DNA of 64,000 bases from Leucoraja erinacea. Lineage: Eukaryota. This document shows, one piece after another, positions 352 through 59,702 of this stretch. Where the stretch lies: NCBI RefSeq assembly GCF_028641065.1, contig NC_073390.1, positions 12,462,001-12,526,000 of the forward strand, written 5' to 3'. The notes under the pieces were generated by a model that saw only the letters and a list, made by a program, of their open reading frames with translations, was not told the DNA's origin and did no database searches. The stretch's first letter is position 1. Each line of letters begins with the position of its first letter. The position numbers and the translations under genes are program-made.

Positions 352-525
352 TTGGACACAAAAATCTCATCGGGTCAGACAGCATTTTCAGCATCAGACT
401 AAAGAAGGGTCTCGGCCCAAAATGTCACCTATTCCTTTTCTCCAGAGATACTGTCTGCCCACTGAGTTACTCTAGCTTTTTGTGTCTATCTTTGGTTTAA
501 ACCAGTATCTACAGTTCCTTCCTAT
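352..525. repeat. Penelope-terminus-derived partial fold-back element, decayed hammerhead motif
   Basis: gacacaaaaa...cgggtcagacagcat arm followed by ctaaagaagggtctcggcccaaaatgtc and the common tail. Confidence 0.65.
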
Positions 526-2250
526 ACTTAATTATTAGACATCTGAGTTTCCGATTATTTCCTTTCCCTCTTTCTGAAATCTTACATGTAAGGAAGAAAC
601 TTCCAATGCTTCAACAACAGAGGGAATGAAAACATAAATGTGCTTATCCCTTCAAATAATTATTACCACAATATAATATTTCAACAGCTACTTAATGAAA
701 ATTGATTCAATTAGTCAAATAGGGATTTTTTTTCAGTAGAAAATTTAAATATTAATATTTTGACTTTTATATTTTAGCAGTTTAATGGTCTCAGTCAGGG
801 TACGACATAATCTTTACAGATTGTTTCACGTTTTGAGAAACTAAAGTTTGGCGGTGTTTGTTTTAATTCTTCTCAGTCTGGATAATCACACTTCAGACTG
901 AACTAAACTTCCCACAGGCAAAGCAACACTTATCATGATTCACACAGATGGGAACAGACTGGCAATGACAGGAATAAATGCATGGTGCATGCCAATAACT
1001 CCAGGTAAATTAATGTCATATTTATGTTTTATTGTACCAAGTGGAAAGGTAGGCTATTCTCAGACGGAACCTCTTCAGAAGATTTGTGTTGGGTTCACTG
1101 CTGTGCTTTGAAGGGTGGTTATGATTGATTCTCCCGTCGCATCATGTACAACCTAAAGCACCAGACAGCTTTAGTGTCTGTTGTTAAACGACTCAACTCA
1201 CAGCAGGCATTATTTGTGTCAGACTCGCCTTCAAAGATGCCAGGTCAGCTGATGTCAGCTGCTCCAACCCCACTGGCTCTCTTCACAGTTCATCTTGATC
1301 TGGTCCCCATTTCTTCAGCCTCTTTGCACATCTTTCTTCGCACTTACCCATTCTGTTCTTTCAAACCTGCCATCTGCACCATTGTCTTCCATCTCCCTGG
1401 ATCACCAGACTGGTGTGATCAAAACTAATCACTGCGTTGGGAACAAAACACCAGGATGATGTTGGAAGCCGGGTTACTGTTGGATACTGTGTGCAGCTTT
1501 CAAGATGGACATTATAAGACTTGCTCAGCTGAGGGAGGCAGTCAAGAGAGAGGAAGGCCGCATAAAACAAAATGGTTCTGCTGCCACATGCGACTGAAGG
1601 GTTGGTGAACTTTTGTAACTTTCTCGGCGCCAAAACATGACGACACTTGTGCACTGGCGAGGTGAGGCCTGCTACATGATTTTATTGGATTGTATGCGAA
1701 CCGAAGCATTTGACTGCACCGACTGGAGGTACATGTGACAATGAAATAATAATAATATTAATTATAATAATAATAATAATAAACTTTATTAGGACTCGAG
1801 GTCCAGACAAGGGGCAACATTACATTTAAAAAAAAATACATTGCATATTAAAAAATATCATAAAGTATATATAAAATCTTAGTATATCACTTATAAAAGC
1901 ATCATAAATGATATAAAAAAACAAAATACATGAGTTAAAAATCCAGATTAAAAGAATGATCAATGTCCTACAACGAGACAACGATACCAGTGTCTCCACA
2001 GCTGGGATTCGTGGCGTGTAGTGCTAACCCTTATGTTTGACAAGGCCACACTAATGGAGTTATCATTGAATCATTGAATCATAGGAATAGGTGGAGTTTG
2101 ATTCACTGCATTGCTGCTGGTAATTTGAAAACAGCAATATAGTGCAACCAGCAAGGAGGAGAATGGGACTGTTGGGATAAATCTGGCAATGAGAGAAATA
2201 TTGTACTATTATTAGATTGATTACAAGATAAACACATTTCTATTAAACTC

Positions 2251-2850
2251 AAAGTGTAGAAGTTGGGAGGTCATGTTGCAGTTGTATCAGACGTTGGTGA
2301 GGCCACATTTAGAGTATTGTGTTCAGTTCTGGGCATCGTGTTATAGGAAATATGTTGGCAAGCTGGAAAATGTACAGATAAGATTTACGGGAATGTTGCC
2401 AAGACTAGAGGATGTGAACGATTGGGAAAGGTTGAGTAGGCTGGGACTCTATTCCTTGGAGCGCAGGAGGATGAGGATCGATCTTATAGAGGTATGTATA
2501 TAAGATCATGAGCGGAAAAGATCGGGGAGATGCACAGAGTAGGTGAATCGAGGACCAGAGGACATAGCTTTAAGGAAAAGCAGAAAAGATTTAATAGGAA
2601 TCTGAGGGATAACTTTTTCACACAAAGGGTGGTGGGTGTATGGAACAAGCTGCCAGAGGAGGTAGTTGAGGCAGGGACCATCCCAACATTTAAGAAACTG
2701 TTGGCCAGGTATATGGATAGGATAGTTTTGGAGGGATGTGGATGAAATGCGGGCAGGTAGGACTAGTGCAGCTGGGATTTGTTGGCCAATGTGGGCGTTG
2801 GGCCAAATTGCCTGTTTCCACACTATATCAATCTATGACTCTATGACTCT
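2251..2850 (+). mobile_element. CR1 LINE 3' fragment
   Basis: LYQTLVRPHLEYCVQFW, RTRGH and FFTQRVV motifs; (ctatga)n tail. Confidence 0.9.
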
Positions 2851-3339
2851 AAACATCTTCTGTACTAGACCCACTGTTGGCAACATCTCAGGGGGCAGTT
2901 AAATGTAGAGCACGTCAGAGCATTGACATCAAAGTAATTATGTAAGGTGAGAACAACCCTTTGTCACACTAATCACAAAAGGAAATATTAATAGGAAATG
3001 GGCATGGACTGCAGTGTGGATGATCAACAATGAAGGATTACAAACATTCAAAGCCACTCCCTCCCAAATAGAGACTGGGGGGAAAGGAAGGATAGCACAG
3101 ACCAGTGACAGATACTGAATTTCAGTAACAAATTCACAACTGCCATGTTAGGTATACAGTTGTGGAGGCTCTTATGTTTACACCACCTCTCCTGCTCTTC
3201 ATGCATTGCAGAGTTTGATTGCTGTAGATTGTGGATGGCTGAGCCTTCAGCTTCCTTGGTCCTAAGGTTTTGGAGTCTATTACCTGATGCCTCCTTCCTC
3301 CCACTCCTCCTTTAAATATCTATCTATACAGTCTAGTTT

Positions 3340-3455
3340 GATCTAAACAGAAACGTTGCCTATTTCCTTCGCTCCATAGATGCTGCCGCACCTGCTGAGT
3401 TTCTGCAGCACTTTTGTCTACCTTCCATTTTCCGGCATCTGCAGTTCCTTCTTGA
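3340..3455 (+). repeat. Penelope terminal tail fragment
   Basis: gaaacgttgcctatttccttcgctccatagatgctg, the same tail as 58401-58470 (reverse complement). Confidence 0.7.
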
Positions 3456-3601: not shown

Positions 3602-6000
3602 ATGAATGAATGAATCTCTTTATTGTCATTGCACATGGTACAACGAAATTTAAAAGTCAATCCCACGGTGCGATTCACAAGAGCAATTTTAAATATATAA
3701 GAAAAGGTAAAAATATATACATATTAAAAAAAAATTACAGATAAATAACAATAGCAGCTGAGGTAGAACCATTCAGTTGAATGTGAGTGTTATTTCTTAT
3801 TTTGCATTGTTAAGTTCACGTATGGCTATGGGGTAGAAGCTGTCTCTGAGTCTGTTTGCGCGAGTTTTGAAAGACCTGTACCGTCTGCCAGAGGGCAGCA
3901 GGTGGAACAGGTTGTGTCCAGGGTGGGAAGGGTCCTTCAGGATGTTGGCTGCCCTGCCAAGGCAGCGAGAGCTGACGATGTCCTTCAGGGAAGGCAGTGG
4001 GCAGCCAGTGATTTTTTGTGCGGTGTTGATGACCCTTTGAAGGGCTCTCCTGTCCGCTGCAGAGCAGCTGGCATACCATGTGGTTATACAGTACACCAGC
4101 ACACTCTCGATGGAGCAGCGGTAGAAGGACACCAGCAGCTTCTCCTCCAGGTTGTTTTTCCTGAGGATCCTCAGAAAGTAGAGTTGCTGCTGGGCCTTCT
4201 TGACTGCTGTGGTGGTGTTTGTAGTCCAGGAGAGATTCTCCGTAATTTGTGTGCCCAGGAATCTGAAGCCTGAGACCCTTTCCACAAAGTCCCCATTGAT
4301 GAATAGAGGTTTGAGGGCTGCACTGTTCTTACAGAAGTCTATGATAATTTCCTTTGTTTTTGTGGTGTTTAGGATGAGGTTGTTGTCTGAACACCACGCT
4401 GCCAGTCTTTGGACTTCCTCCCTGTAGGCTGTCTCATCTCCTCCTGAGATGCGTCCAACCACAGTCGTGTCGTCCGCAAACTTGACGATGGTGTTGGTGG
4501 AGTGGGCAGGGACACAATCGTGGGTGTAGAGGGCGTAGAGGAGGGGGCTCAACACACAGCCCTGTGGGGAGCAGGTGCTGAGTGTGATGGGGGTGGAGAG
4601 GTGATGGCCCAGTCTGACGGTCTGGTGGCGGTTAGACAGAAAGTCCTTGATCCAGAGGCAGATGGGTTGGGAGAGTCCTAAATCCATGAGTTTGGTGACC
4701 AGTCTGCTGGGGATGATGGTATTGAAGGCGGAGCTAAAGTAAATGAAAAGCATCCTCACATAGCTCCCCTGGTGTTCGAGGTGGGTCAGTGCAGTGTGAA
4801 GAGCAGTGGCGATGGCATCCTCATTGGGCCTATTTGCTCTGTAGGCAAACTGGTGTGGATCGAAGGTGGGCGGGAGGCTGGGTTTGATGTGCTGCTGGAC
4901 CAGCCTCTCGAAACACTTCATGATGACTGGCGTGTGAGAGCGACCGGTCGGTAGTCGTTAAGGCCGCTGATAACAGGCGTTTTTGGTAGTGGGATGATTG
5001 TGGCAGACTTCAGGCACGGTGGGATGATGGATTTGGACAGGGACAGGTTGAAGATTTTCGTGAAGACCTCGGAGAGCTGGTCTGCACATTCCTTCAGAAC
5101 CCTTCCTGTCACGTCATCCGGGCCGGCAGCCTTCCTCGGGTTCACCGCCCTGAGCACCCGCCTCACTTCATGCTCCTGCACAGTGAGGGTGTAGTTGTTG
5201 TTGTTAGGGGCTGGTGGGAGAATGGTGACGAACTCTTCTGGTTCTGCCTCGAAGCGAGCAAAGAAGCAGTTCAGCTCCTCTGCCAGTGAGGCGTCGCTGT
5301 CGGCCGTCGTGCTGTTGCTGGGCTTGTAGTTGGTGATGTGCTGGATGCCCTGCCACACCCGCCGTGGATCGTTGTTGTTAAAGTGGTCCTCTATCTTCCT
5401 CTTGTGGTCCGCTTTGGCATCCCTGATGCCTTTCTTCAGGTTGGCTCTAGCAGCGCTGTACAGGGCTCTGTCGCCAGACCTGAAGGTGGTGTTGCGGTCC
5501 TTGAGGAGAGTTTGGACCTCTTTTGTCATCCACGGCTTCTGGTTGGGGTACACCCGGATGAGTTTGTCGACGGTGACGTTGTCAACACAGTTCTGGATGT
5601 AAAAGAGTACCGTGGATGTGCACTCCTCCAAGTCCTGATTTCCAAAAATGTCCCAGTTTGTCCATTCAAGGCAGTCCTGTAGCTGTGAGGAAGCTCCTTC
5701 AGGCCAAGTTTTAACAGTCCTGGTGGTGGGTTGAGCTTTTCTCCTGAGGGGCGTGTATGCTGGTGCTAAGTGAATGGATAGGTGATCTGACTGGCCTAAG
5801 TGTGGTAGTGGTGTGGCTCTAAACCCCTTCTTGATGTTTGAGTAGGCCTTATCTAATGTATTTTCTCCCCTGGTTGCACATTTGATGTGTTGTTCAAACT
5901 TGGGGAGAACTGATTTTAAGTCTGCGTGATTGAAATCACCAGCTATGATATGGGCTGCTTTGGGGTAGGTGTTCTCTTGTTTGCTGATAGTGCTATGGAG
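3602..6000 (-). mobile_element. Rex1/Babar-clade LINE, 5'-truncated, largely intact ORF2 (end of APE + RT) with a frame break near 4921
   Basis: AGDFNH and GQSDHL (APE); [34 protein letters not shown] and KFADD (RT); (attc)n tail at ~3602. Confidence 0.92.
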
Positions 6001-6284
6001 GTATGTCTTTTTGCCTGCCTACTTCAGAGTTTTTTAGTGCCTAAACATCCTGGCTCTACTCATCACTGGTTCACGTGTGTTGGTGAGTGTCTTCTGGCCC
6101 TTTGCTGTCAGATAGCATCCATGACAGTAGGAGTAGATTTAAAGCTGCTGTTCCTGATGTGAGTACGTCTGAAAATTAACACAGGGGGAACCACCTCAGC
6201 TGGGAAACTAACAGAAAATCTTAAATTTATTCAAACAAATTTCAAGCTACCCGTTTCTCAAGTGTATAAAAATATCAAGGACAT

Positions 6285-7188: not shown

Positions 7189-7204
7189 TACCTTAAAAGC
7201 TGCT

Positions 7205-13400: not shown

Positions 13401-13664
13401 GGTGTGAAATGGCATTGCTCAGACCCAGAAGTGCTGTTTCCATTTGAGTGAACATAAAATAGCACATTAAAATATAAGACGATCAATAATAAGTGAAGAC
13501 ATGAGGAACTGCAGATGCTGGTTCACAAAAAATGTGCAAGATTAACTGAGTGGGTCAGGCAGCATTTCTGGGGAACATGCATGGGTGACATTTCTCAGTT
13601 TAAAAGGGATTTCAACCATGCTGAAAATCTGGAAATCACAATACCTTAATATGATTTAAGTGAA

Positions 13665-21059: not shown

Positions 21060-22050
21060 ATGAGGCCTCCTCCATTGTCAGAGTGAGGCTAACTGCAAAC
21101 TGGAGGAACAGCATCTCATATTTCGCTCGGGCAGCTTACAACCGAGGGGTATGTATATTGATTTCTCTAACTTCAAGTAACCCCTGCATTCCCATCTCTC
21201 TCCATCCCTCCCCCACCCAAGTCACACCAGCTGTCGTTCTCACCTAGCTACAGCTAACAATGGAATGTTTCCATTATAATTGTTACTTTTTGCATATCTT
21301 TAATTCATTAGTTCTACATCTCTCGACATCAGGGGTTGGCAACCTACGGCCCCCGGGCCGAATACGGCCCGTAACCTGAAATCATCCGGCCCTCGGGCGT
21401 ATTTTGTTTTCTGTAGTCACCGGCCCGCAGACTTCCTTCATCTCCGGTACCACCCGGGCCTGAGGCGCCCAGGCGCGGTGACGCAAGGAGGCCTGAACTG
21501 GCTGCCGCAATTGAGGAGCCGCTGAGCGCCCGAGCGGGGCCGAGCTCTGGCTGTACCGCATCCTGCGCAAAGCCGCCAGCACGGCCGCGCACCTCTGTGT
21601 CTGGGATTCACTGTTGGGATCGGGGTCGGGGTTGTCAATAGGCCGGGGATGTGTGAGTGTGAGTATTTGAGCCAACGGCTTCAGGACAGAGCCAAAGCAA
21701 TGGACCGTAGGTACGCTGTGTTCGTGAGCGCCCATAACTAGGGGCCAGCGCTCTGGGTGGTGTCCTCGAAGGGGCAGGATCCATGTGAACACGTGATTTG
21801 ACGCCTGCCATCCGTGGTGGGATGGGGGTGGGATTTATGTGAACACGTGGTAGATGTGGCCCGCCATCCGCTCACAGACATGTGTCCGGGCCCCTATGCA
21901 GAACAAGGTTGCCCACCCCTGGTCTACATCATTATCATCTATATCTCTTGTTTCCCGATCCCGTGACTTTCAGCCTGAAGAAGGGTCTCGACCCGAAATG
22001 TCACCCATTCCTTCTCTCCACAGATGCCGCCTGTCCCTGTGAGTTACTCA
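21060..22050 (+). mobile_element. Penelope-like 3' fragment (GIY-YIG C-terminus, tail, hammerhead motif) interrupted by a hAT MITE
   Basis: GLLHCQSEANCKLEEQHLIFR.GSLQPRG; CTGAAGAAGGGTCTCGACCCGAAATGTC at 21975-22002. Confidence 0.8.
21330..21921. mobile_element. hAT (Charlie-like) MITE, 592 bp
   Basis: TIRs CAGGGGTTGGCAACCT / AGGTTGCCCACCCCTG; 8-bp flanks ctcgacat / gtctacat; subterminal cggccc motifs. Confidence 0.85.
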
Positions 22051-22061
22051 AAAATGTCGAG

Positions 22062-22243: not shown

Positions 22244-22649
22244 CACATTTTGATGACCTCTGGTCCTAAAGCAGCCATCTTTAAACCATAGTATCTGACC
22301 CTAGTCAGACACTGAAGAAATGTTCATTGTAGGTAATTTTCCATCTGAGGTAAATTTTCATTGGTGATACCATGCTTTTTGGCAGCGCAATGCAATGACT
22401 GGCAATGAGATGAATGCCTCTGTAATCTGTTGAAATCATTCACGTTACAGGTAAATCTTCTCTCAATATTTGTTGCATCTCAGATTGAACACTTGAGCTC
22501 AGTGCAGCTCGATAACAGATTGGTGTTTGCTAAGATCTAACCAATAAATATCAATAACTGCAGCAAAGCTGCCAATCCAATGTCAAAAATATGATATCAT
22601 TGTAACTGCTTCCAGAAACCAAATAAAAACACTATGAGACAAAGCAGTA

Positions 22650-22960
22650 AGTCAGTTAGTCAGGCAGCATCTCTTGAAGGAATGGATGGGTGACGTTTCT
22701 GGTTGGGACCGTTCTTCAGATTGATTGTGGTAGGGGGGGAGAAAACTGGAAAAGAGGAGTGGGGTTTGATCAAGCACTGGCAAGTGATAGGTGGATACAG
22801 TTGGGGAGGTCGTTTGATTAGCAGATGGCAAAAAAGGAGTAAGTGACAAAGGTTGAAGATGAAGAGGAGACAAAAGGGAGTCAGATATGGAGAGAAGAGG
22901 AGTGAAATGTTACGCCAGAGGCAGGGATATGGTGGGGGGGATGGGGGGAGATGTGCAGAA
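22650..22960 (-). repeat. Penelope tail with hammerhead-like motif
   Basis: Minus strand CTGAAGAACGGTCCCAACCAGAAACGTC at 22692-22719. Confidence 0.7.
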
Positions 22961-25943: not shown

Positions 25944-26139
25944 AATAGACGACAAAATGTTGGAGTAACTCAGCGGGTCAGGCAGCATCTCTGGAGAACA
26001 TGGATAGACAATGTTTCAGGTTGGGACCGTTCTTCCCAAGCCAAAACATCTCCTATCCATGTTCTCCAGAGATTCTGCCTGATCCGCTGAGTTACTCCAA
26101 CACTCTGTGTCTGTTTTTGGTAAACCAGCATCTGCAGTT
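25944..26139. mobile_element. Penelope-terminus-derived fold-back element with perfect 11-bp TSD
   Basis: Inverted arms ggagtaactcagcgg...ctggagaacatggatag / ctatccatgttctccagag...ccgctgagttactcc; CCATGCTACAA at 25933-25943 and 26140-26150. Confidence 0.85.
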
Positions 26140-26654
26140 CCATGCTACAAGGCAATTTCAAATGTTTAGGCCAGGCAGATGATCAATGCTTAGAAACCAC
26201 TTGTCCAGCCAAAATGAAAGGAGAAACATGAACCATTTGACGCTGTGTCTTGAACTCTGTAACTATAAGAGGAAAGGGAAGGCAAAAATGAAATAGACAA
26301 ATAATGGAAACTGGAAGAGTAGATTGGCAACTCATTAGATTAGTGAGAATTAAGTGGGCAGATATTAAACCATTACAGCATTCTGCTGCTGCCCAGGATC
26401 AGTTTTTTCATCACTGATGCCAGTCATAACCCATGTAGGCAATAACACAGTAATACGTGACTACACGGCAAAAGGGAACTGGGAGGTAAAGAATCCCTCA
26501 CAGTCTGCGTTCTTGCACTGTGCCAAATAATAAGTGAGGATTATACAATGCAGTATCGGTGTGCCAAAACTAGGTCAAATCTGAAACCAAATAGAGATTC
26601 CCTTATATAGAAAGACTCAGATGAATATGCAAAGCTATGTGTGAAAGGAGACAC

Positions 26655-28422: not shown

Positions 28423-28620
28423 GTGTATGAATGAACTGCAGATGCTGGTTTAAACCAAAGATAGACACAAAAAGCTGGAGTAACTCAGCGGCACAGGCAA
28501 CATCTCCGGAGAGAAGTAATGGGTGGTATTTTGGGGTTTGACCCGCAATGTCATCCATTCCTTCTCTCCAGAGATGCCGCCTGTGCCGCTGATTTAGTGC
28601 AGCATTTTGTGTCTATCGCG
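28423..28620. mobile_element. Penelope-terminus-derived fold-back element
   Basis: gatagacacaaaa...cggcacaggc / gcctgtgccg...ttttgtgtctatc; imperfect flanking repeat gctttttatcat / gcttttttcat. Confidence 0.8.
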
Positions 28621-30111: not shown

Positions 30112-30530
30112 TTTAGTTTAGTTCAGTTTAGAGATACAGCCTGGAAAAAGGCTCTTTGGCCCACCAGTCACCCCTTAACACTTGTTCTGTGTAATCTCTC
30201 TTTCTCATCCACTCTCTACACATTAATGGCAATTTCCTGAGCCCAATTAACTATAATGGAGTAAGTCAATGGGTCGGGGAGCATCTCCGGTGTAAAGGAA
30301 TAGGTGAGCTCTGGGTAGACACCCTTCTTCAGACTGAAATTCAAGGGAAAGGGTCGTTGTTCCTTCCCACACACTAACCATAAACCCGCACATATTTGCA
30401 ATGTGGGAGGAAGCCAGAGCACCCAGAGGACATTTTGTGGTCACAAAGAGAGCACGCAACAGGTCAGGATCGAACCTGGGTCTCTGGCGCTGTGAGGCAG
30501 CAGCTCTACCCGCTGCGCCACTGTGCACCC
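30112..30530 (-). mobile_element. V-SINE interrupted by a Penelope-terminus fragment (~30255-30340)
   Basis: SINE head caggatcgaacctggg and tail (tttag)n; insert ends acccttcttcagactga. Confidence 0.75.
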
Positions 30531-37229: not shown

Positions 37230-37530
37230 ACTCTGTTGCCTCCATCTCACCCCAAGCCTCTGTCGTTAACTCTACCCATCTGCCAATTGTTCCCCTCACC
37301 TGTAATCACCTACCACTTGCCTGGCTTTGCCTCACCTCTACCTCCCTTTTGCAGCTCCTCTAATTTTCAACCTTACCCCCCCCCACCCCCCACCCCCGCT
37401 CCATTACTCTGAAGAAGAGCCCCAAGCCAAAATGTTGTCTGTCCATTTCCCTCCTCAGATGTTGCTTGACCTGCTAAGTTCCCCCAGCAGTTTTTTGTTT
37501 TACTTGTGATTCCAGCATCTGCAGTCTCTT
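37230..37530 (+). repeat. Old Penelope tail with decayed hammerhead motif
   Basis: ctctgaagaagagc...aaatgttg; ccagcatctgcagt end. Confidence 0.6.
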
Positions 37531-37539
37531 CTGTGTTAA

Positions 37540-39217
37540 ACCCCCGTCTCACGGTGCGAGTCCACCCACGAGTGATCTCGAGTTTAAAACAAATCAAACT
37601 CGTGGTAATCACGTAGAATTAACGTAGCGGGAACATCGGAACTCGGAACGCTAACGGCAGGAACTCGGAGAAACTTGTTAACTGTTGAAAATCTTTCAAC
37701 ATGATGAAAGATTTCCACGAGTCAAATTTACTCTGGAAGTAAAAATTTTAAACTTTTAAACTCGATGTAAGAACGTAGTAGCCCCTGAGTTTACCATGGT
37801 GACTCGTGAGTCTACCGTGGGCACTCTTTAACTCAGCGGGACAGGCAGCATCTCTGGAGAGAAGGAATGGGTGACGGGATGACGTTTCCAAAATTCTGCT
37901 GCGTGTTTGTGTTACTCCAGCACTGTGTGTTCACTTTTTGTCAACCAGTATTTGCCCTTTCTTGTGTATGACATTATTTGTATCCGTGGCAGTTGATTGT
38001 CACTCCCTTCAGTTTCCCAGGGGGAAGGGACGGGGCGAGGGCGAGGGGGTCAGGGGGAGATGCTGCCTAGTGACGATCTAATTTATCCAACGAGTTACAC
38101 TCTCTTCAAGGATTAATTTCTAAATAACCCGCCAATTTCTCTTCATTCGCTGTTATACCCGAGAACTGCTCCAGATGAAATTCTGGATTTGATTTTTTTT
38201 CCTCCCGGGGGTAAAAGAAAAACCAAATGCACTTAAAGCGCCAGGGGTGGGGTAGAGGCGTACAACCAACGTACGGGGCGATATTATCCAGGATTTGTAA
38301 AATAAAACAAAAATTGGAGTACTGAATAATGGCACAGATTTAAGAGGTGCAGGAAGGAACTGCATATGCTGGTTTAAACCGAAAAGCTGGGGTAAGTCAG
38401 TGGGACAGGCAGCATCTCTGGAGAAAAGAAATGGGCAAGATTTTGAATCAAGACCCTTCTTCAGGCTACAGTCTGCATTTCTCCAGAGATGCTGTCTGAC
38501 CCGCTGAGTTACTCCAGCTTTTCATGTCTGTCTAAGGATTTGAGAGAGTGAGATTCACCGCTAGACATCGTCGGTATATTAAATGTACAAGAGTCTTTCA
38601 CATGACCGTAGTCAAGGAAACAGTAGCGTACCAATAGCCCGATTATCGTAGCGGTATAGCAAAGACATCTCTGCTGTCCGTTTTTGGTGTTTCATATATT
38701 TGTTCTTTCCCCCCCCCCACACCCAACTCCAGTCCCGTCCCGACCCCCTGGGAAACTGAAGGGAGCGTCAATCAAGTGCCACGGATACAAATAATGTCAT
38801 ACACAAGAAAGGCCAAATGCTGGTTGACAAAAAGTGAACACACAGTGCTGGAGTAACACAAAGACGCAGCAGAATTTTGGAAACCTCATCCCGTCACCCA
38901 TTCCTTCGCTCCATAGATTCCGCATGTCCCGCTGAGTTAAAGAGTGCCCGCGGTAGACTCACGAGTCTCTACGGTAAACTCACGGGCTAGTACGTTCTTA
39001 CAATGAGTTTAAAAGTTAAACATTTTTACTTCAAGAATAAATTTGACTCGTGGAAATCTTTCATCATGTTGAAAGATTTTCATGAGTTAACAAGTTTCCC
39101 GAGTTCCTGCCGTTAGCTTTACGAGTTCCGACATTCCTGCTACGTTAATTCTACGTGATTACCATGAGTTCGATTTGTTTTAAACTCATGGGTGGACTCG
39201 CACTGTGAGACAGGGCC
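37540..39217. mobile_element. Fold-back non-autonomous DNA element with ~490-bp inverted arms (Harbinger-like termini)
   Basis: 37540-38034 is the reverse complement of 38734-39217 throughout (e.g. aaaatctttcaacatgatgaaagatttccacgagtcaaattta / taaatttgactcgtggaaatctttcatcatgttgaaagatttt). Confidence 0.88.
38347..38536. mobile_element. Penelope-terminus fold-back element in the spacer of the large inverted repeat
   Basis: Inverted arms; flanks gatttaagag / gatttgagag (9/10). Confidence 0.75.
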
Positions 39218-39419: not shown

Positions 39420-39742
39420 GTGTCGGAAGGAACTGCAGATGCTTGTTTATATTGAAGATTGGCATAAAAGGCTGGAGTAACTCAGTGGGAGAGGCAGCAT
39501 CTCTGGAGAGAAGAAATGGTGACGTTTTGGGTCCAGACCCTTCTTCAGGCTAGTCACAGATAAGGGAAACGAGAGATAGACAATGATGTAGAGAGATAAA
39601 GAATAATGAATGACAGATATTCAAAAAAGTAACGATGATAATGGAAAGGGGCCATTTTCAGCTGTTTGTTGGGTGAAAACGGGAATATGGTGCGACTTGG
39701 GTGGGGGAGGGAAAAATAGAGAGGGAATGCCGGGGTTACTTG
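39420..39742 (-). repeat. Penelope tail with hammerhead motif (G12>A)
   Basis: Minus strand CTGAAGAAGGGTCTGGACCCAAAACGTC at 39521-39548; inverse of the 21170-21320 tail. Confidence 0.8.
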
Positions 39743-40919: not shown

Positions 40920-41130
40920 AAAGAACTGCAGACGCTGGTTTACAAAAAAAATACACAGTGCTGGAGTAACTCAGAGGGTCAGGTACCAGCCCTGGAGAAC
41001 AAAAAAAATTGATGTTTTGTGGCTGAACCTTTCTTTAAACTGAATCAGTACCAACCCAAAACATCACCGATCCATGTTCTCCAGGCAAGCCGCCTAATGC
41101 GATGAGTTACTCCAGCACTTTGTGTCTTTT
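40920..41130. mobile_element. Penelope-terminus fold-back element
   Basis: gtgctggagtaactc / gagttactccagcac arms. Confidence 0.75.
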
Positions 41131-41477
41131 TTAAAAAGATAGTTATCCTGTAGAGTAATGCTTTGAGTAAAATCATGTTTGTTGCTATTATATTGCTTTA
41201 GAGTCTAAGTCTACATTGAATGTGTGCCTAAAGCTCAAAAACCCCTTTTGACTCCAAAGCTAGCAGAATGTCGATGTTCTCCAGAAGAGGGAAGTGAAGG
41301 GTGGCAGGTGACATTTCCGCAGGGAATATTCTGAACACTTCTCCACAGCCAGCTTTGCAAACAACAATGGATAAGGCACCTGTGGCTTACTACAATGGTT
41401 CTCAGTAAGATATGTCATATGGTTCAGCCACAGAGCCACTTTTCCTGTATCCATCACAGTCAAAGTGACTTCAACAA

Positions 41478-47080: not shown

Positions 47081-47627
47081 CTCTAATGTGGCCTTTCTGA
47101 CAAAAGTAAACAATTACTTGCAGACTGGTGGAGGGAGAGCAGGATAGTTAGATTACTTATAATTTATCATAATATTATCCATTGATGGCTTTGTTCTCAG
47201 CTGTAAAATACTATGGATCTACTTTGATAATATTGATGCCATGTTATGTCTAATAATATATATCAGCAATGTAGGGAGATCACACGCCAATGTTCCCAAG
47301 TGCTAAGGACAGTTATTAATGGTTCAATCAAATGCAACATGGAGCAGTTATAGAAAGCAAATATCATTGCTTTCAGTCTCCTGAGTAATGACACCATACA
47401 ATCACAGCAATATTTGCCAGTGCCACAGTAATATTATCTGATGCAGATATCTAGATGGTGGCGACTTTGTGTATGTTGGGTTTTGTGCCTGAGAATAGAG
47501 GGAGAATGAAAAATAGATATTGTTATGGGGGAAGAAATAAAAACATGAAACTAAATTCTCTTGTGAATGGATTTTCTTTCTTTGTATTAATTTCTTAAAT
47601 ATCTTCCAGGGATCTGCACAAAGTGGG

Positions 47628-47788
47628 ATAGATATAAAATGCTGGAGTAACTCAGCAGGTCAGGCAGCATTACTGGAGAAAATGGAAAGGTGACTTTCAG
47701 TCGGAAGAAGGGTCCCGACCCGAAATGTCACTTGTCCATTTTCTCCAGAGATGCTGCCTGACCCGCTGATTTGGTCCAGCATTTTGTG
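47628..47788. mobile_element. Penelope-terminus fold-back element
   Basis: aaaatgctgga...ggtcaggcagcat / atgctgcctgacc...tccagcatttt; central cggaagaagggtcccgacccgaaatgtc. Confidence 0.8.
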
Positions 47789-48591
47789 GTAGGAAATAGG
47801 TTGGCAAGAGCAAATGATTGTAATGTTGTAAGACTAGGGTGATTTTGAAAGGATTTTAAGCACTGGAGTTACAAGCACTGTAGCAATGGTAATTGTCCTC
47901 GGTGGTGGTCTCTGTCTGGCACTGAGAGGGGAAAATCATTTCGATAGGCAGCAGGGATTACGAATATCCCTCCTGAACTATATGTCAGTTAAAGACATTC
48001 CTTTAATCAGTGCACCCTCCATGTACAGCATTATGGAGCTGTTAATGTGATCTGGGTGCCAGTATTCATCAGATGTTGCAGTTCATTTAAATATTTTATT
48101 GTTCCTCCCAGTGCATTACATATGAAGTGTTCATTAAAAGAGGCAGACCTTCATTAAATAGCAAATAGGCTCCAAATGAGCATTGCATACATTCTCTGTT
48201 CATTGCAAAATGTGCAACTGGTGCACACTGTGGTTCCTTAAGCACATCAGATACTGAATCAAATGTTAACACCATATTATGCCAAAGGAAGCCACGGAGC
48301 CAGTGCCAAATGTATCTACTTGAATATCACAGATGATAACAATTTGCATTGAACCAGAATAGTGAAGCATTGCGAACCCTTTCACGGGATGTTATCAAAG
48401 GGTGAAGCTCTTTAAGGTCTCCCCTCAGCCTTCCATGTTCCAAGGAAAGAAGACATAGCCTATATCCAACTCAAACACTCTGCAACTTCCTTGTAAAGCA
48501 TTGATGCACCTTCTCCAGCTTAATGATGTCCTTCCGAAAGCTAGGCAACCATTAGTGAATACAGTACTGCAAATGTGGCCTTATCAACGTG

Positions 48592-49449: not shown

Positions 49450-49485
49450 GGGTCTGAAGAAGGGTTTTGGCCCGAAACGTTGCCT
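49450..49485 (+). ncRNA. Minimal type I hammerhead ribozyme motif, core intact
   Basis: GGGT-CTGAAGA-A-GGG(TTTTGG)CCC-GAAA-CGTT^GCCT: CUGANGA and GAAA boxes, stem II, ACGU palindromic stem III, NUH = GUU, weak stem I. Confidence 0.6.
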
Positions 49486-49578
49486 ATTTCCTTCGCTCCA
49501 TAGATGCGGCCTCACCCACTGAGTTTCTCCAGAATTTTTCTCTACCTTCGATTTTCCAGCATCTGCAGTTCCTTCTTA
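49452..49578 (+). mobile_element. 127-bp Penelope-terminus insertion with 9-bp flanking direct repeat
   Basis: AACATCAGG at 49443-49451 and 49579-49587. Confidence 0.75.
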
Positions 49579-51749: not shown

Positions 51750-53436
51750 TTTAAAGAAGTTCATTCAGAATTTTGAAGAGGTTAAGATTTCAATTTGCAA
51801 GAACATATAAATGATATATGGACACACTGATCTGTTCTGTATTCATGTCTACTATATTCTGTTGTGCTGAAGCAAAGTAAGAATTTCATTGGCCTATCTG
51901 GGACACATGACAATAAACTCTCTTGAATCTTGAGTCTTGAACATAGGGGGCCATGAAAACTGGGCCACAATTTGGAAACTGCAATTGGAAGTACTGTTAA
52001 TGAATATTAGATGATTAGTAAATTAAGATATAAGCTGAAGGTGTGGCCAGGACAAAAAAGGTATGTTATAGTTTATTGGATCACTTTCAGGGTTCAACGA
52101 AGTTTTAATTTGTTGTACAGTAATCTCTGATGCTTTATTCTCAGATGAATCACAACCTGTTCAATTTCATTTCAATTCTTCAATGGGGTCATCAGAGTGG
52201 TAATCATCTCGGCTAATTTTAACACTGATGTCTATTATTTTACATTTCTTGATACTAAATATAATCTGACTAAATTGTTATTCTGTCTTCAAGTTTTTTT
52301 CTATCATCTGGAAATTCTGGCAATTTGACAGTCAATAGTCTAATTCAGATCAATTAGATATTGAAATTACACATCATTTGCCTTTCCCCTGACTATTACT
52401 TTAATCATTTGAAGTGTTGCATGGTTCATTATATTCCCATTTGCATTTCCAGACTGTCTTAGCTAAAGAGTGTGGGATGGGGAAAAACTCCGACTTTTAA
52501 TTTTGTCTACTTTATCTGTGTCACAATTTGTCCAAAAAATAACTTTTCTATAGGCTGTAAAGTTTTTAAGTGAAAACAATATTAGTTAATTTCCAAGTGA
52601 TTGTCGGGTTAGTTCACATTACAGAAATACATAGTGTTTTTTGTAAATCAGTAGACTTGCTGTGAAGCTCATACCTATGTGAATTATTGGTGTGCTTTTG
52701 AGGAAAAGCAACATGCACAGCATGTTTGGTTAAGAAGCTTCAAATGAAGATAGCTCTTGATTAAGGGTCTACAACATGAAACATTAACTGTTTCTCTCTT
52801 CCCACATGCTGCCTGACCCATTAAGATTGTCCAGTATTTTCTGTTTTTATTTCAAATATAGAAAGCTATTCCACTCCTTACAAATATCTGATTTCATCCT
52901 AAACTGTAAAGTGTAACTTAAAAAATCAAGTAAGTAAATAATTGATTCAGCCCAGAGATGGAACAAATAAAGTCATATATTTCATTGGTCACCTCTCCTC
53001 AATTGCCCTATTTTCAGTCTTAATTACCTTCCCCCCCTCCCCCGCCCTTTCTTAACAAAATCAATATCCAATTAAGAAAATGGGACTTTAGTATAAGAGC
53101 TTCAGTTTAAGCGATTTATATTTAGCAAGAAGGTCATTCTTTTCTAGAAGGAAAAATATATTCCATACATATATTCATTAGCAGCCAATCTCGTAGAATG
53201 CTTTAAACGAATTAGTGGACAATCACACTGTGACAAATAAGCCCAATTAATCCTCTGCTACAGTGCTCCTAAAAGCGCATGTTTTTCAAGTTTCACTTCT
53301 AAACTGCGTTGATTTCTCCATAAAATCCACGTCTTGCACCATCATCGCTGTCTCCAATAAAGTGCTGATTATCCAATTTGCTTTTGCTGGCTCTTGTGCA
53401 GGACAGACATACTATCTTGCTTACAATTAGCTGGAT

Positions 53437-53691
53437 TGATATTAACCACTTTAGAACCATTTTAGAAAGATATTGTTAACAGTTCCTCCCCTTCACTTGC
53501 TGTCCTCCCTTCATATCTGCTGCCATAGCCCTCTTTGTGCAAAGTAAACCTTTCTACAAATGTTCTTGCAAACTACAACCCAATCTCTGACCTGATTCTC
53601 CTATTCCAAAGTGCTTGGGCATGGTGTAACCAGGTGGAGTTGGCTCCTTCCTGACTACAGTTCTAAAATGGTTCTAAAGTGATTAATATCA
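53437..53691. repeat. 31-bp inverted repeat pair (30/31), possible old MITE
   Basis: tgatattaaccactttagaaccattttagaa (53437-53467) / ttctaaaatggttctaaagtgattaatatca (53661-53691). Confidence 0.8.
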
Positions 53692-53859
53692 GCCATGCTG
53701 ATTATGACAAAGTTAGACTGCCGTTATTTGTCTCAATGTGTGTGTAGCCTTCAACGCAGTTGACCACCATTATAGGCCAGAAGTGCAGAGTGAATCATCC
53801 ATCTCAGCCTTTTCTACTGATTCCAAGCATGGTTAATGCCAGTCTTCAGCCAATTTAGT

Positions 53860-54680
53860 TCACTCCATAAGATGTCTAATAATCACTAAAGATATTGGAT
53901 GCAGCTAGGGCTATAGGCCTTGACAACATTCCAGCAATAGCACCGAAGACATGCTTCAGAACTTGTCGTGCCCTTCGCCAGTGCAGCAATAGCACTGATA
54001 TCTATCTGACAATGAGATAAATTGCCCAACTGTGTCCTGTCCACAAGAATCAGGCCAAATCCAACCCAACAATTACAAGCCTATTGGTCTACTTTCGACC
54101 TTCAGTAATGTGATCGAGGGGATCAGTAATAGTGCTACCATGCAGCACTTTCTTAGCAACACCATCCTCACAGAAGAAGTCTGAAGAAGGGTCCTGACCC
54201 AAAACACCTATCCATTTTCTCCAGAGGTGCTGCCTGACCCGCTGACTTACTCCATGCTCATAGAAGCTCCACCAAAAACACTTGACTCCACGGCTCATTA
54301 AAGCCCCGGTCCAAACATGGACAAAAGAGATGAACTCTAGAGGTGCAGTGAGAGTAATTCCTTTGGCATTGTGACAGTATTTGATCAAGTATCCAATCAA
54401 GGAGCCCTGGCTGAACTAGTCAATGGGAATCCAGGGGAAAATGTTCCACTAGTTGGAATCATGTGCGATACAAAAGAAGATTGATATGATGGTTAGAGGT
54501 TGATTATCTCTGCAAGAAATCCTCAGGGTAGTGTTCTAAGTCCAACCATCTCCAGCTGCTTCATTAATGACCCTCCTTCAATCATAAGATCAGCGGTAGG
54601 GATATTAACTGACTCCTCAGATGAAGAAGTTCATATCCACATTCAGCAAGACCTGGACAATATCAGACTTGGGCTAATGA
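53860..54680 (+). mobile_element. Ancient CR1 RT remnant with a Penelope tail inserted at ~54178-54253
   Basis: LDAARAIGLDNIPAI, PQGSVLSP, FIND, QQDLDNI. Confidence 0.7.
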
Positions 54681-55371: not shown

Positions 55372-55968
55372 TGTACAAAGAACTGCAGATGCTGGTTTAA
55401 ATCTAAGATAGACACAAAATGCTGGAGTAACTCAGTGGGACAGGCAGCATCTCTGGAGAGGGAAGGTATGGGTGAAGTTTCGGGTCAAGACCATTCTTCA
55501 GATGTCAAGGGAGCAGTATCCGCTGTTCCAGGTGTGGACTCTTGTATATCGGCGAGACCAAGTGCAGGCTCGGCGATCATTTTGCTCAGTCTGCCTAAAC
55601 CTACCCGATCTCCCGGTTGCTCAACACTTCCCACACTGACCTTTCTGTGCTGGACCTCCTCCATTGTCAGATTGAGACCCAGTGCAAATTGGAGGAACAG
55701 CACCTTATATTTCACATGTTTAGCTTACACCCCAGTGTAATGTCAATGAACATTGACTAACTTTCAAGAACGCTGGCTTTCCCTCTCTTATCAACTCCGC
55801 ATTTCCAGTTCTCCTACCAATCTTACTGTATCCGCCAATATGTTATCTCTGTACTACCCACTCCACTGATATCAGTCTGAAGAAGGGTCTCAACCCGAAA
55901 CGCCACCCATTCCTTCTCTCCAGAGTTGCTGCCCGTCCTGCTGAGTTACTCCAGCATTTTGTGTCTAT
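55372..55968 (+). mobile_element. Miniature Penelope insertion: inverted terminus + GIY-YIG remnant + direct terminus, 15-bp TSD
   Basis: IRCSRCGLLYIGETKCRLGDHF from 55518; hammerhead-like motifs at 55474-55501 (-) and 55877-55904 (+); CA(T/C)CCAGCCAACATG at 55357-55371 and 55969-55983. Confidence 0.88.
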
Positions 55969-57177
55969 CACCCAGCCAACATGCTCTCTATTATCAATTC
56001 TGAATCTTATCGTATACTTCACAGCCTAAAAATATACATCTGAGACCCTTGTGTTTGTCTCAATGCTTTTGTTACACGGGTCATTTTCACACTCTCCGCC
56101 CCGCCCCCACCACCACAACCATCACCACATAGCATTCGGTGAATGGAGCACAAGACAATATTTACTAGTAAAGACTTAGTGGTAGAGCAGAGAGAAAGCT
56201 AATTTAATTTTAGAACAAAAAGTCTGTTTGTACTGCCTTATACTTAATGGGCCAGAGTGATTAATATTAAATGTACTGACTACTCGCCTGGCCAAGATTG
56301 TCAAATACGACATAATAAAATAAGGCACTTTATTTAATTATTTTATAATTCTCTCAAAATAGCCAACGTTTGAACACCTTTGAGTTAATATTGAGCAGTA
56401 ATGACGTTGATGGAAGTGTCTGTCAGGAGCAGTCATGATGTTGCCAGTGAAGGCATCTAAACATCTCAATTAGGAAACCCCCCAGGGTATTATTGCTAAT
56501 ATCATTCGGATCAGGTTAACCAGAACTCTTTGCAACATTTTGATCAGTGTTGGGCACAACAGTTAATTAGTGTGTAGTTCTACGTTTCTATACATCAGCA
56601 TGTGGTCAAGGCACAAAACTGTGAAAAGAATCTGAGGAGCCACAACATCAGCTAAAGTGACGAGGAATTCACAGTCCAAAACAATTGGTGATACATTATA
56701 CATTATCGGTCAATAATGCCTCATAGAGAGGCAGCAGGGATAATTGGATTAGGTGCTGGCGTGAAATAAAAATCTTGCACTTAAACTAAGCCTCTCATGG
56801 CTGCCAGATGTACAGAGTATCTCGCATTTACTTTGGTAGTTCAGTTACTAATTCAATAATGAGGGTGGAAACACAATGGATATGTTATGGAGGCAGTTAT
56901 TTCCGGAGGCCTGGACCATTGATTGGTAGAGATGCGTTCAGATCCTACTGTGTCAGTTTGGGTGAGGTGGTTAGATTCAGTTCATTAAATACTTTAAATT
57001 AAAAAACCTAAAATTAACAATGGTGTCAGTGACAATATTGGATTGTTGTCAAGACCCACTTGATTTTCAAACGTGTTTAAAGAAAGGAAATCTGTGACCA
57101 GAAATTGGGTTGTGTCCTGCCTTGGCTTGTGTCCGATTTGATTGAATTTCAATTAGAAAAAATATCAATCCTAATTT

Positions 57178-57459
57178 GGATGGCACAGACACAGCAGTAC
57201 AGTTGCTGCCTTACAGCGCCAGAGACATGGGTTCGATCCTGACTGCACATGCTGTCTAGAGAGTTTGTATCTTTTCCCTGTGACTGCATGGGTTTCCTCT
57301 GGGTGCTCTGGTTTCCTACCACACTCCAAAGACATCCAGGTTTGTAGGTTTAATTGGTTTTGGTAAAAATTGTCCCTCATGTGTGGGCTAGTACTAGTGT
57401 GATCGCTGATCGGCGTGGACGGTGGACAATGGGCTTGTTTCTACGCTGTATCTCTAAAG
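57178..57459 (+). mobile_element. V-SINE
   Basis: gggttcgatcctgact; V-domain. Confidence 0.85.
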
Positions 57460-58225
57460 TCTCATCATCAGTAAAACCAAGGAACTGATTGTGGACTTTG
57501 GAAGGGGAAGGATGAGGACCCACAATCCTGTTTATTTCAATGGGACGATGGTGGAGAGGGTCAGAAATGTCAAATTCCTGGGCATGCATGTTTCCGGATA
57601 TCTTTCCTGGACCCAGCACACTGATGCAATTGTAAAGAAGGCACATCAGCACCTCTACTTTCTTAGAATATTACAGAGATTCAGTATATCAAAGAGGGTT
57701 CTCTTGAACTTCTACAGGTGTACAGTCGAGAGCATACTGACTGGTTGCATCATGGCCTGGTTCGGCAACTTGAACGTCCAGGAGCAGAAAAGACTGCAAA
57801 AAGTTGTGACTACTGCCCAGTCTATCACCAGCTCTGACCTCCCCACCATCGAAGGGAACTAGCGAAGTCACTGCCTCAAAATGGGAGCCAACATCATCAA
57901 AGACCCACACCATCCTGGCCACACACTCATTTCACCATTGCCATCGGGAAGAAGCATTTCGGGAAGAAACAGGAGCCTGAAAACTGTAACGTCCATGTTC
58001 TGGAACAGCTTCTTCCCTACACCCATTAGGCTATTAAACACAACAACAAATAAGCTCTGAACTACAACAGACATTATGATTATTGCACTATATTTGTTTA
58101 TTTATTGAGTATATGTGTATGAACATTTGTACTCCCGTTATGTACTATGTTTACATATTCTGTTGTGCTGCATTTCATTGTCCTATCTGGGACATGACAA
58201 TAAAACACTCTTGACTCTCTTGACT
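57460..58225 (+). mobile_element. Rex1/Babar 3' fragment
   Basis: KTKELIVDF, KFLG, KKAHQHLYFLR, FYRCTVESILT; (ctcttga)n tail. Confidence 0.88.
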
Positions 58226-58400
58226 ATAATCAAAGGAATGGATTTATTACGAGTTTCATGAATACCGTGTTTTTTTTTCCTGGGTCTTCTGAACAAATCA
58301 AGTGCTGAAACACCGAGTAGCCTGCTGGCAACCAACAATTAGACAATGCAAATCTGTGAAGTCCTCCACATGGACATCTGGACACATACCTAGTCTGTGC

Positions 58401-59702
58401 AAGGTAGACAAATGTGCTGGAGAAACTCAGCGGGTGCAGCAGCATCTATGGAGCGAAGGAAATAGGCAACGTTTAGGGCCGTAACCCTTCTTCAGACTGA
58501 TGTAGGGTGGGGGGCGGGGGGGAGAAGAAAGGAAAAAGGAAGAGGAGGAGCCCAAGGGCTGAGGGAGAGCTGAGAATGGGAGGAGACAGCAAGGGCTACT
58601 GGAAATTGGAGAATTCAATGTTTATGCTGCTAGGGTGCAGACTGCCCAAGCAGAATGAGGTGCTGCTCCCCCAATTTCCGGTGGTGCTAACTCTGGCCGG
58701 GGAGGAGGCCCAAGACAGAGAGGTCGGATTTGGAATGGGAGGGGGAGTTGAAGTGCTGAGCCACCGGGAGATCAGGTTGGTTAACGCGGACCGAGTGGAG
58801 GTGTTCGGCGAAACGATCGCCAAACCTACGCTTGGTCTCACCAATGTAGATCAGATGACATCTAGAGCAGCGGATGCAATAGACGAGGTTGGTGGAGATG
58901 CAGGTAAACCTCTGTCACACCTGGAACAACTCCTTGGGTCCTTGAATGGAGTCGAGGGGGGAGGTAAATCGACAAGTGTAGCATCTCTTGCAGTTGCAAG
59001 GGAAAGTGCCCGGAGAGGGGGTGGTGCGGGAGGGAAGGGAAGAATTGACAAAGGGAGTTACGGAGGGATCGGTCTTTGCGGAAAACAGACAGGGGGGGAG
59101 ATGGGAAGATGTGGCGAGTGGTGGGGTCACGTTGGAGGTGGCGAAAATGAAGGAGGACTATTTGTTGTATGTGATGGCTAGTGGGGTGAAAGGTGAGGAC
59201 AAGGGGGACTCTGCCCATGTTACGAATGGGGGAATGGGGAGAGAGAGCAGTGTTACGGGGTATGGAAGAGACCCTGGTGAGAGCCTCATCTATAGTAGGG
59301 GAGGGGAACCCCCGTTCCCTGAAGAATGAGGATATTTCCGATGCCCTGGTGTGGTGTCATCCTGGGAGCAGATGCGGCGTAGACGTAGGAATTGGGAGTA
59401 GGGGATGGAGTCCTTACAGTAGGCAGGATGGGAAGAAGAGTAGTCAAGATGGCCATGGAAGTCAGTGGGTTTATAGTGGATGTCGGTCAGAAGTCTATCA
59501 CCTGCGATGGAGATAGTGAGGTCAAGAAATGGTAGAGAAGTGCCGGAAATGGTCCAGGTGTATTTGAGTGCCGGATGGAAGTTCGTGTTGAAGCAGATGA
59601 AGACAGTCAGTTGTGTGTGGGTGCAGGAGGTGGCCGCAAAGCAATCATCGATGGAGCGGAGGTAGAGGTCGGGGATGGGTCCCTGGTACACCTCGAACAA
59701 GG
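58401..59702 (-). mobile_element. Penelope-like element, 5'-truncated: RT C-half + GIY-YIG endonuclease + terminal repeat with hammerhead motif
   Basis: YLRSIDDCF, LPFLDLTISI, TDIHYKPTD, SIPYSQFLRLRRICS, RVPLVLTFHP, GTFPCNCKRCYTC, NLVYCIRCSRCHLIYIGETKR; minus strand CTGAAGAAGGGTTACGGCCCTAAACGTT at 58468-58495. Frameshifted. Confidence 0.92.

What the first reader, a model, noticed from the sequence alone, without database searches (positions are those of the whole stretch)
352..58495. Dispersed family of tiny fold-back retro-elements built from the hammerhead-bearing Penelope terminus
Seen: the ~100-130 nt terminus of the Penelope copy at 58401-58500 recurs more than ten times without coding sequence (352, 3340, 13505, 22650, 25944, 28423, 30255, 37400, 38347, 39420, 40920, 47628, 49452, 54178, 55372). 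Many copies are 160-210 bp palindromes that look like MITEs. However, their arms are of unequal length and their flanking duplications vary (11 bp at 25944, ~10 at 38347, 9 at 49452, 15 at 55372). Established: Penelope-like elements carry minimal hammerhead motifs in their terminal repeats and often have an inverted 5' copy of the terminus, and variable-length TSDs indicate target-primed reverse transcription rather than cut-and-paste. Inference: these are either a non-autonomous, ribozyme-bearing (retrozyme-like) hairpin RNA family mobilised by the Penelope RT/GIY-YIG, or extreme truncation-plus-inversion products. Either way they would be easily misannotated as DNA MITEs.
Basis: partly seen in the sequence, partly recalled or inferred. 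Interest (0 to 1): 0.85.

Follow-up and report, generated by a model that had tools for sequence, protein, structure and literature searches.

The report
Short inverted Penelope retrotransposon insertions
These small hairpin-shaped repeats are abortive insertions of a known kind of retrotransposon, not a separate self-copying ribozyme RNA, but where they start and stop hints at how Penelope elements build their odd inverted ends.

Summary
All 15 listed loci carry the ~135-nt terminus of a Penelope-like element (PLE) from a shark- or ray-like genome; 26 arms were found in all. Seven insertions have two head-to-head arms. Five of 17 tested insertions have significant 9-15 bp target duplications, so these are not DNA MITEs. 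The uneven arms are the known PLE 'tail': 3' ends fall at consensus ~131-135 or ~97-105. The retrozyme reading fails. There are no tandem units. None of 17 well-defined 5' ends lies at the hammerhead cut site, and none of 13 palindrome arms checked keeps an intact ribozyme core. The palindromes come from several subfamilies, partner arms match each other best, and junctions differ. Best reading: independent, heavily 5'-truncated PLE insertions with an inverted second arm, probably primed from both nicked strands. What I did not find in print: 14 of 17 5' ends fall inside or just upstream of the hammerhead, two insertions have non-nested arms, and a repeated motif may set the tail length. One window only; genome-wide tests were not possible.

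The parts
58399..59720 (-). 5'-truncated, broken PLE copy: RT C-terminal part, CX2-5CxxC linker, GIY-YIG endonuclease, 3' UTR and a tail-less terminus (58399-58501); 11-bp target duplication CCTAGTCTGTG
352..521 (+). Two-arm insertion: short inverted tail-less arm (~352-390) plus tailed sense arm; no duplication found
3350..3453 (+). Single tailed arm starting at consensus 31; same subfamily as 58401
13504..13594 (-). Single tailed arm starting at consensus 31; a possible second arm at 13595 is not significant
21920..22055 (+). Terminus of a longer PLE copy whose GIY-YIG end and 3' UTR lie at ~21066-21331, split by a DNA MITE; hammerhead core intact; 3' end abuts another repeat
22645..22900 (-). 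Terminus ending at consensus ~84, plus ~165 nt of upstream sequence shared with the 37403 copy
25945..26141 (+). Palindrome: inverted tail-less arm (from consensus 13) plus tailed arm (from 24); 11-bp duplication CCATGCTACAA; arms not nested
28428..28617 (-). Palindrome centred on hammerhead helix II; one arm tailed, one not; duplication not significant
30256..30341 (-). Single arm ending at consensus 87
37250..37532 (+). Tailed terminus with ~140-170 nt of upstream sequence (left boundary approximate)
37829..37961 (.). Hairpin fragment of the terminus inside the left arm of a 1.7-kb foldback element; mirrored at 38814-38939
38352..38535 (-). Palindrome; tailed plus tail-less arm; junction near consensus 7 with a deletion at the tip; 10-bp duplication with 1 mismatch (borderline)
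39425..39742 (-). Tailed terminus with ~190 nt of 3' UTR shared with the 21 kb copy
40920..41133 (-). Palindrome; tailed plus tail-less arm; junction near consensus 5-6 with a deletion at the tip; no duplication found
47626..47789 (.). Palindrome with both arms tail-less; junction overlaps a GTGAC..TTTC microhomology; no duplication found
49452..49576 (+). Single tailed arm from consensus 9; 9-bp duplication AACATCAGG; hammerhead core intact; same subfamily as 58401
52760..52860 (+). Old, diverged single arm (72% to consensus)
54176..54254 (+). Single arm, consensus 8-87; duplication 18 bp with 3 mismatches, overlapping the element end
55378..55969 (.). Two-arm insertion: short inverted tailed arm (55378-55503) plus long tail-less arm with GIY-YIG coding sequence (~55518-55969); 15-bp duplication with 1 mismatch; arms not nested

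Best explanation
These are independent, dead, heavily 5'-truncated insertions of a Neptune/Nematis-type PLE family; about a third carry the inverted second arm typical of PLEs. Proposed steps: (1) The PLE endonuclease nicks both target strands 9-15 bp apart (duplications shown; nicking inferred). (2) Reverse transcription starts at one of two sites ~32 nt apart in the terminus, giving tailed or tail-less ends (the two end classes are shown; start sites are inferred from the anole PLE work). (3) Copying runs through the hammerhead cut site, so the template was uncut, and usually ends within or just upstream of the hammerhead (end positions shown; a stall or a nearby RNA 5' end is inferred). (4) When both nicked strands prime, the two short cDNAs join head-to-head, often at self-complementary stretches of the terminus, leaving a lopsided palindrome (inferred). 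Confidence is 0.8 for 'independent PLE truncation-inversion products' and about 0.55 for double priming specifically.
For: Terminus sits directly 3' of RT and GIY-YIG coding sequence in three copies. Variable 9-15 bp duplications, significant in 5 of 17. Two discrete 3' ends; 11 of 25 arms are tailed; 6 of 7 two-arm insertions have one tailed and one tail-less arm. This matches the published 30-40 bp tail at one end of inverted pLTRs (PMC3846280, PMC8557442) and the two RT start sites, both-strand nicking and uncut template of PMC11167929. Partner arms average 83% identity against 75% across loci, the best of 720 pairings. 14 of 17 junction- or duplication-defined 5' ends lie at consensus -12 to 38 and 0 at 36-42. 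At 25945 and 55378 each arm has sequence the other lacks, which copying back along one cDNA cannot give.
Against: Only 7 two-arm insertions. The one-tailed-arm pattern is not significant on its own (p 0.06-0.15), and 47626 has no tail on either arm. In vitro both strands used the same start sites. Ten of 17 insertions show no duplication and two more are borderline. The arm tree is mostly unresolved: 1 of 21 branches strong, and the 38352 arms do not group together. The end-clustering p (2e-8) uses hand-assigned positions and an interval chosen after seeing the data. Four arms end at a third position, 84-88, that the two-site model does not explain. 38352 and 40920 join at about the same position.
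Confidence: 0.8

Rival explanations
1. Same origin, different chemistry: the inverted arm arises by fold-back self-priming (of the cDNA, or of an antisense RNA as proposed in PMC3846280), and the tail is trimmed later from one end when the intermediate is resolved.
For: Junctions sit on local palindromes at 28428, 38352 and 40920. PMC3846280 reads such junction palindromes as self-priming, and PMC8557442 attributes the tail to endonuclease resolution. Five of 7 two-arm insertions are compatible with nested arms.
Against: The non-nested arms at 25945 and 55378 need extra trimming. PMC11167929 maps the tail to two RT start sites. Single-arm copies also end at the hammerhead, with no fold-back partner.
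Confidence: 0.3
2. A short non-autonomous PLE-derived RNA of ~130 nt, starting just upstream of the hammerhead (SINE-like, not hairpin, not circular), is the usual template, which is why so many arms end at consensus 3-10.
For: Nine of 17 well-defined 5' ends lie at consensus 4-10 (positions used). Short copies outnumber long ones 19 to 6. Non-autonomous PLE derivatives are described (PMC8557442).
Against: Short and long copies share subfamily-diagnostic bases. The other 5' ends scatter over 13-57. A stall at the hammerhead, or run-off from the 5' pLTR of a full transcript, gives the same picture.
Confidence: 0.15
3. The palindromes are an independently replicating, ribozyme-bearing hairpin RNA family (retrozyme-like) moved by the PLE protein.
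For: Very stable hairpins (-120 kcal/mol, z -16.7 for 25945). PLE-derived retrozymes exist in vertebrates, including one cartilaginous fish genome (10.64898/2026.07.22.740005). Two palindromes join at about the same position.
Against: No tandem units. 0 of 17 ends at the cut site and 0 of 13 palindrome arms with an intact core; at 25945 and 28428 neither arm spans the CUGA box. The predicted hairpin pairs up the ribozyme region. G-U versus A-C mismatches are 18 to 17, so no strand preference. Arms pair by locus.
Confidence: 0.06
4. They are DNA MITEs moved by a transposase.
For: Palindromic shape. One hairpin fragment lies in both ~490-bp arms of a foldback element at 37542-39215.
Against: Duplications of 9, 11, 11 and 15 bp rather than one length, ends uneven by ~32 nt, and continuity with RT and GIY-YIG coding sequence.
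Confidence: 0.02

Closest known systems
Inverted pLTR plus optional 30-40 bp tail of endonuclease-bearing PLEs (Adineta Pen2a, PMC3846280; general scheme in PMC8557442; D. virilis 34-bp repeat, PMC2377424)
   Same: 5'-truncated copies, an inverted copy adjoining at the 5' end, a tail on one end only, 8-11 bp duplications, palindromes at the inverted junction, solo termini.
   Different: Here both arms are usually cut down to ~60-130 nt, so the whole insertion is a 164-214 bp palindrome with no ORF. I found no description of that extreme, or of 5' ends clustering at the hammerhead, in the passages read.
Anolis Poseidon PAc in vitro mechanism (PMC11167929)
   Same: Two internal RT start sites bounding the tail, both strands nicked and extended, uncut hammerhead RNA as the template.
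   Different: A different clade (this element has the CX2-5CxxC linker that Poseidon lacks). No ORF start was identified in this terminus. Head-to-head joining is not reported in the parts read.
Minimal type I hammerheads of metazoan PLEs (PMC4209133)
   Same: CUGAnGA box, extra nucleotide before helix II, G-C first pair, GAAA, palindromic 15.2/16.2; mostly dispersed single motifs, and pairs on opposite strands 100-700 bp apart.
   Different: Helix I is only 2 bp in these genomic copies (4-5 bp in the paper's Schistosoma motifs, 2 bp in D. virilis); 24 of 26 arms lack an intact core.
Non-LTR retrozymes (PMC7229834; 10.64898/2026.07.22.740005)
   Same: Short, non-coding, related to the PLE terminus, type I hammerhead sequence, long duplications.
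   Different: Retrozymes are head-to-tail tandem units, each with a complete ribozyme; these are single or head-to-head and do not start at the cut site.
LINE-1 twin priming (recalled, no call)
   Same: Both nicked strands prime, giving an inverted 5' part joined at microhomology.
   Different: In L1 the two cDNAs copy different parts of one RNA. Here both arms copy the same terminus, which needs two RNAs or both terminal repeats of one transcript.

Membership tests
Endonuclease-bearing PLE | RT followed by a C-terminal GIY-YIG endonuclease with the CCHH motif | tested here: met
   [quoted passage not shown] The copy is broken and 5'-truncated.
Endonuclease-bearing PLE | 5' truncation with an inverted 5'-truncated copy adjoining | tested here: met
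   7 two-arm insertions.
Endonuclease-bearing PLE | 30-40 bp tail on only one end | tested here: met
   Ends at 131-135 versus 97-105; 6 of 7 two-arm insertions have one of each.
Endonuclease-bearing PLE | Variable-length target duplication | tested here: met
   9-15 bp, significant in 5 of 17.
Endonuclease-bearing PLE | Partial tandem forming direct pLTRs around a full ORF | not testable with these tools
   No full-length copy in the window; no eukaryotic genome collection was available.
Neptune/Nematis clade | CX2-5CxxC linker between RT and endonuclease | tested here: met
   Present in the 58918-59157 frame; criterion from PMC8557442.
Neptune/Nematis clade | Placement in an RT phylogeny with reference clades | not tested
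Minimal PLE hammerhead | Core boxes, helix II and NUH triplet | tested here: met
   Met by the family consensus and by 2 of 26 arms. Rfam reports no hammerhead.
Minimal PLE hammerhead | Helices supported by covariation | tested here: inconclusive
   82% of cells pair against 14-44% when slid, but no covariation above shuffles.
Minimal PLE hammerhead | Self-cleavage | not testable with these tools
   Needs an in vitro assay.
Non-LTR retrozyme | At least two tandem head-to-tail units, each with a complete hammerhead | tested here: not met
   None of 15 tandem rows involves the terminus; criterion.
Non-LTR retrozyme | Functional ribozyme defining the unit | tested here: not met
   0 of 17 5' ends within 3 nt of the cut site; 0 of 13 palindrome arms intact.
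Non-LTR retrozyme | Unit-length circular RNA | not testable with these tools
   No RNA data.
DNA MITE | Fixed duplication length and symmetric terminal inverted repeats | tested here: not met

The most novel reading that the evidence does not exclude
These mini-palindromes are frozen intermediates of the unexplained PLE inverted-end and tail mechanism. A dimeric PLE complex primes from both nicked strands on uncut RNA (two RNAs, or the 5' and 3' terminal repeats of one). One strand, AGAUGCUG at consensus 58-65, can pair with either of two CAGCAU repeats 30 nt apart; RT starts ~10-11 nt past the helix in either register, which fixes the tail length. The hammerhead then acts as the usual stopping and joining point rather than as a cutter. 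Support: the repeat spacing matches the tail, the outer repeat is 96% conserved, and that helix is the only one RNAalifold keeps. Its covariation is not significant (40 of 500 shuffles).
Probability: 0.3. Interest if true: 0.6.

Novelty: new member of a known kind. Interest (0 to 1): 0.3.

Why it matters
For annotation: PLE termini cover about 4% of this window, and the palindromic ones look like MITEs or microRNA precursors (Rfam's best sub-threshold matches are miRNA families). For mechanism: PMC8557442 and PMC11167929 leave open how PLE inverted ends form. A genome this rich in complete 160-210 bp insertions offers many readable start, stop and junction points for testing double priming against fold-back.

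Tried and rejected
Rfam at E<=5: no hammerhead family among 8 matches, all below gathering score. Pfam found nothing for the RT C-terminal and thumb-region frames. An ORF start inside the terminus: six-frame blastp against the 120 homologues gave nothing better than E 0.34. A second arm at 13595 and at 3350: not significant. Wide searches for duplications around nine copies: nothing clearly above the null. Selection for an RNA hairpin strand: G-U 18 versus A-C 17. Hammerhead covariation: none above shuffles; one search had helices I and III off by one column and is discarded. Solo arms fold no better than shuffles (z 0 to 1.2 in 4 of 4). Strict one-tailed-arm rule: not significant. The two foldback-embedded fragments were left out of the tree and of the end counts; the short 352 arm was left out of the arm-identity, tree and ribozyme tables.
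Full report
Observation. A blastn with 58401-58500 gives 23 HSPs including self. A profile built from them gives 26 arms, with none in 20 control sequences. With a more permissive setting, controls gave occasional hits, the best at E=0.001, so I relied on arms with E<=2e-5. The one exception is the short arm at 352, supported by pairwise alignment above all 300 shuffles.

Parent element. The frames at 58399-59720 (minus strand) encode the end of an RT, a CX2-5CxxC linker and a GIY-YIG domain with the internal cysteine pair. By the criteria in PMC8557442 this is a Neptune/Nematis-type PLE; I built no RT tree. The best named homologues are from a skate, rays and sharks, up to 75% identical, so the host is most likely an elasmobranch. 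The repeat is this family's 3' terminus. It follows GIY-YIG sequence at 58 kb, 55.5 kb and 21 kb, so not every copy lacks coding sequence. The 58401 copy groups only with the single-arm copies 3350 and 49452; the palindromes belong to related subfamilies.

3' ends. Aligned in element sense, arms end at consensus 131-135 (11 of 25 scored as tailed), at 97-105, or at 84-88 (four arms, one abutting another repeat). The ~32-nt difference matches the 30-40 bp PLE tail, described as optional on one of the inverted repeats (PMC3846280; PMC8557442) and mapped to two RT start sites in vitro (PMC11167929). Six of seven two-arm insertions have one tailed and one tail-less arm and none has two tails, but that is not significant on seven cases (p 0.06-0.15).

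Target duplications. Of 17 insertions tested, five beat all 272 swapped-flank controls: 11, 9, 15 (1 mismatch), 11 and 18 bp (3 mismatches, overlapping the element end). One is borderline, one is weak and ten show none; three of those ten had guessed boundaries. Variable length with uneven ends rules out DNA MITEs. A real MITE with an 8-bp duplication (6 of 8 matching) sits inside the 21 kb PLE copy for contrast.

Is there a replicating hairpin family? Partner arms are more alike (mean 83%) than arms of different loci (75%); the true pairing is the best of 720 (six insertions). The palindromes carry at least three sets of diagnostic bases, shared with single-arm or long copies, though the tree is mostly unresolved and the 38352 arms do not group together. 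All seven junction sequences differ. Two, 38352 and 40920, map to about the same position, a short palindrome just upstream of the hammerhead, followed by different deletions; they differ in diagnostic bases, which suggests a hotspot. Arm mismatches show no preference for either RNA strand.

Ribozyme. The consensus fits the minimal hammerhead of PMC4209133, with a helix I of only 2 bp. Rfam does not report it and covariation is not above shuffles. Two of 26 arms keep an intact core and none of 13 palindrome arms does; in two palindromes neither arm reaches the CUGA box. In the predicted 25945 hairpin the region is paired up. No tandem units exist, so the retrozyme definition is not met.

5' ends. 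Of 17 ends fixed by a junction or a duplication, 14 lie between consensus -12 and 38, one at ~57 and two far upstream. None is within 3 nt of the predicted cut site at 38|39. Counting all 25 ends, 18 lie in that interval. The stop rate there is 10-20 times that elsewhere; the positions are hand-assigned and the interval was chosen after seeing the data, so the p value (2e-8) is optimistic. The templates were therefore uncut RNA, as in vitro. Copying either stalls at the hammerhead or runs off an RNA 5' end close by; D. virilis Penelope starts 46 nt upstream of an intron (PMC2377424) whose end abuts its hammerhead.

How the second arm forms. At 25945 the tail-less arm reaches 11 nt further upstream than the tailed one, and at 55378 about 350 nt further. 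Neither arm contains the other, so copying back along one cDNA cannot make both. Two primings, one from each nicked strand, explain this directly and fit the both-strand extension and predicted dimer of PMC11167929. Fold-back on antisense RNA with later trimming (PMC3846280, PMC8557442) is not excluded.

A lead on the tail. CCAGCA occurs at consensus 85 and 115, shortly before each end class, and AGATGCTG at 58-65 can pair with either repeat; single-sequence folds choose the outer repeat when the tail is present and the inner one when it is absent. RNAalifold keeps only the outer helix, with one double change, which is not significant. By eye, the anole RNA printed has a comparable helix starting ~20 nt after its hammerhead cut site and a short motif repeated 34 nt apart; I did not test this.

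What I read. PMC4209133 parts 1-2 of 4. PMC11167929 parts 1-3 of 4, plus the text layer of two supplementary figure files (the images were not visible). PMC7229834 part 2 of 6. Preprint 10.64898/2026.07.22.740005 parts 1-3 of 5; its supplements were closed and may list cartilaginous-fish families related to this one. Passages only of PMC3846280, PMC8557442, PMC8969392, PMC5753468 and PMC2377424. Nine searches showed no paper on an elasmobranch family of PLE mini-palindromes or on 5'-end clustering at the hammerhead. The library omits most subscription papers, and Repbase and Dfam could not be checked. L1 twin priming and the SINE and hAT labels are recalled.

Verdict. A real, dense set of PLE truncation-inversion products whose anatomy is already described for PLEs; not a retrozyme family on this evidence. 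Interest is 0.3, carried by the end-mapping clues.

Noticed in passing
window 37542-39215: Foldback element with ~490-bp arms, 90-92% complementary. Each arm carries the same PLE hairpin fragment (37829-37961, 38814-38939) and the 38352 palindrome sits in its middle. If it is a DNA MITE, it is a route for copying a PLE hairpin by DNA transposition. No target duplication was evident.
   Followed up: partly
window 21330-21921: DNA MITE with 15-bp terminal inverted repeats and an 8-bp duplication (6 of 8 match; hAT-like, label recalled), inserted in the 3' UTR of a PLE copy.
   Followed up: partly
upstream of the hammerhead in the long copies (58501, 55870, 21967, 39552, 22726, 37403): 70-85% pyrimidine tract followed by AG in 4 of 6, just before the CUGA box; resembles a 3' splice site at the position where the D. 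virilis intron ends. The whole UTR is pyrimidine-rich, so this is only a resemblance.
   Followed up: partly
window 22645, 30256, 54254: A third 3'-end class at consensus 84-87; all three share one variant base just before the end, and 54178 has a duplication, so it may be a real start site of one subfamily.
   Followed up: partly
window 6287, 13069, 19520, 22062, 27354, 30390, 36794, 40216, 41477, 44920, 46200, 46762, 48592, 57190, 62460: A ~300-bp dispersed repeat at 67-87% identity, SINE-like (V-SINE/HE1 type, label recalled).
   Followed up: no
window 3797-6018, 23170-24074, 57458-57862: LINE reverse-transcriptase fragments; Pfam RVT_1 in two of the frames scanned.
   Followed up: no
window 50580-50834 and 51251-51345: 48-bp and 38-bp minisatellites unrelated to the PLE terminus.
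   Followed up: no
window 53412-53716 and 18903-19313: Other inverted pairs (56 nt at 80%, 34 nt at 94%), possibly small MITEs.
   Followed up: no
window 25959-26101, 28483-28596: The palindromes give sub-threshold Rfam matches to microRNA precursor families, a likely source of false annotation.
   Followed up: yes
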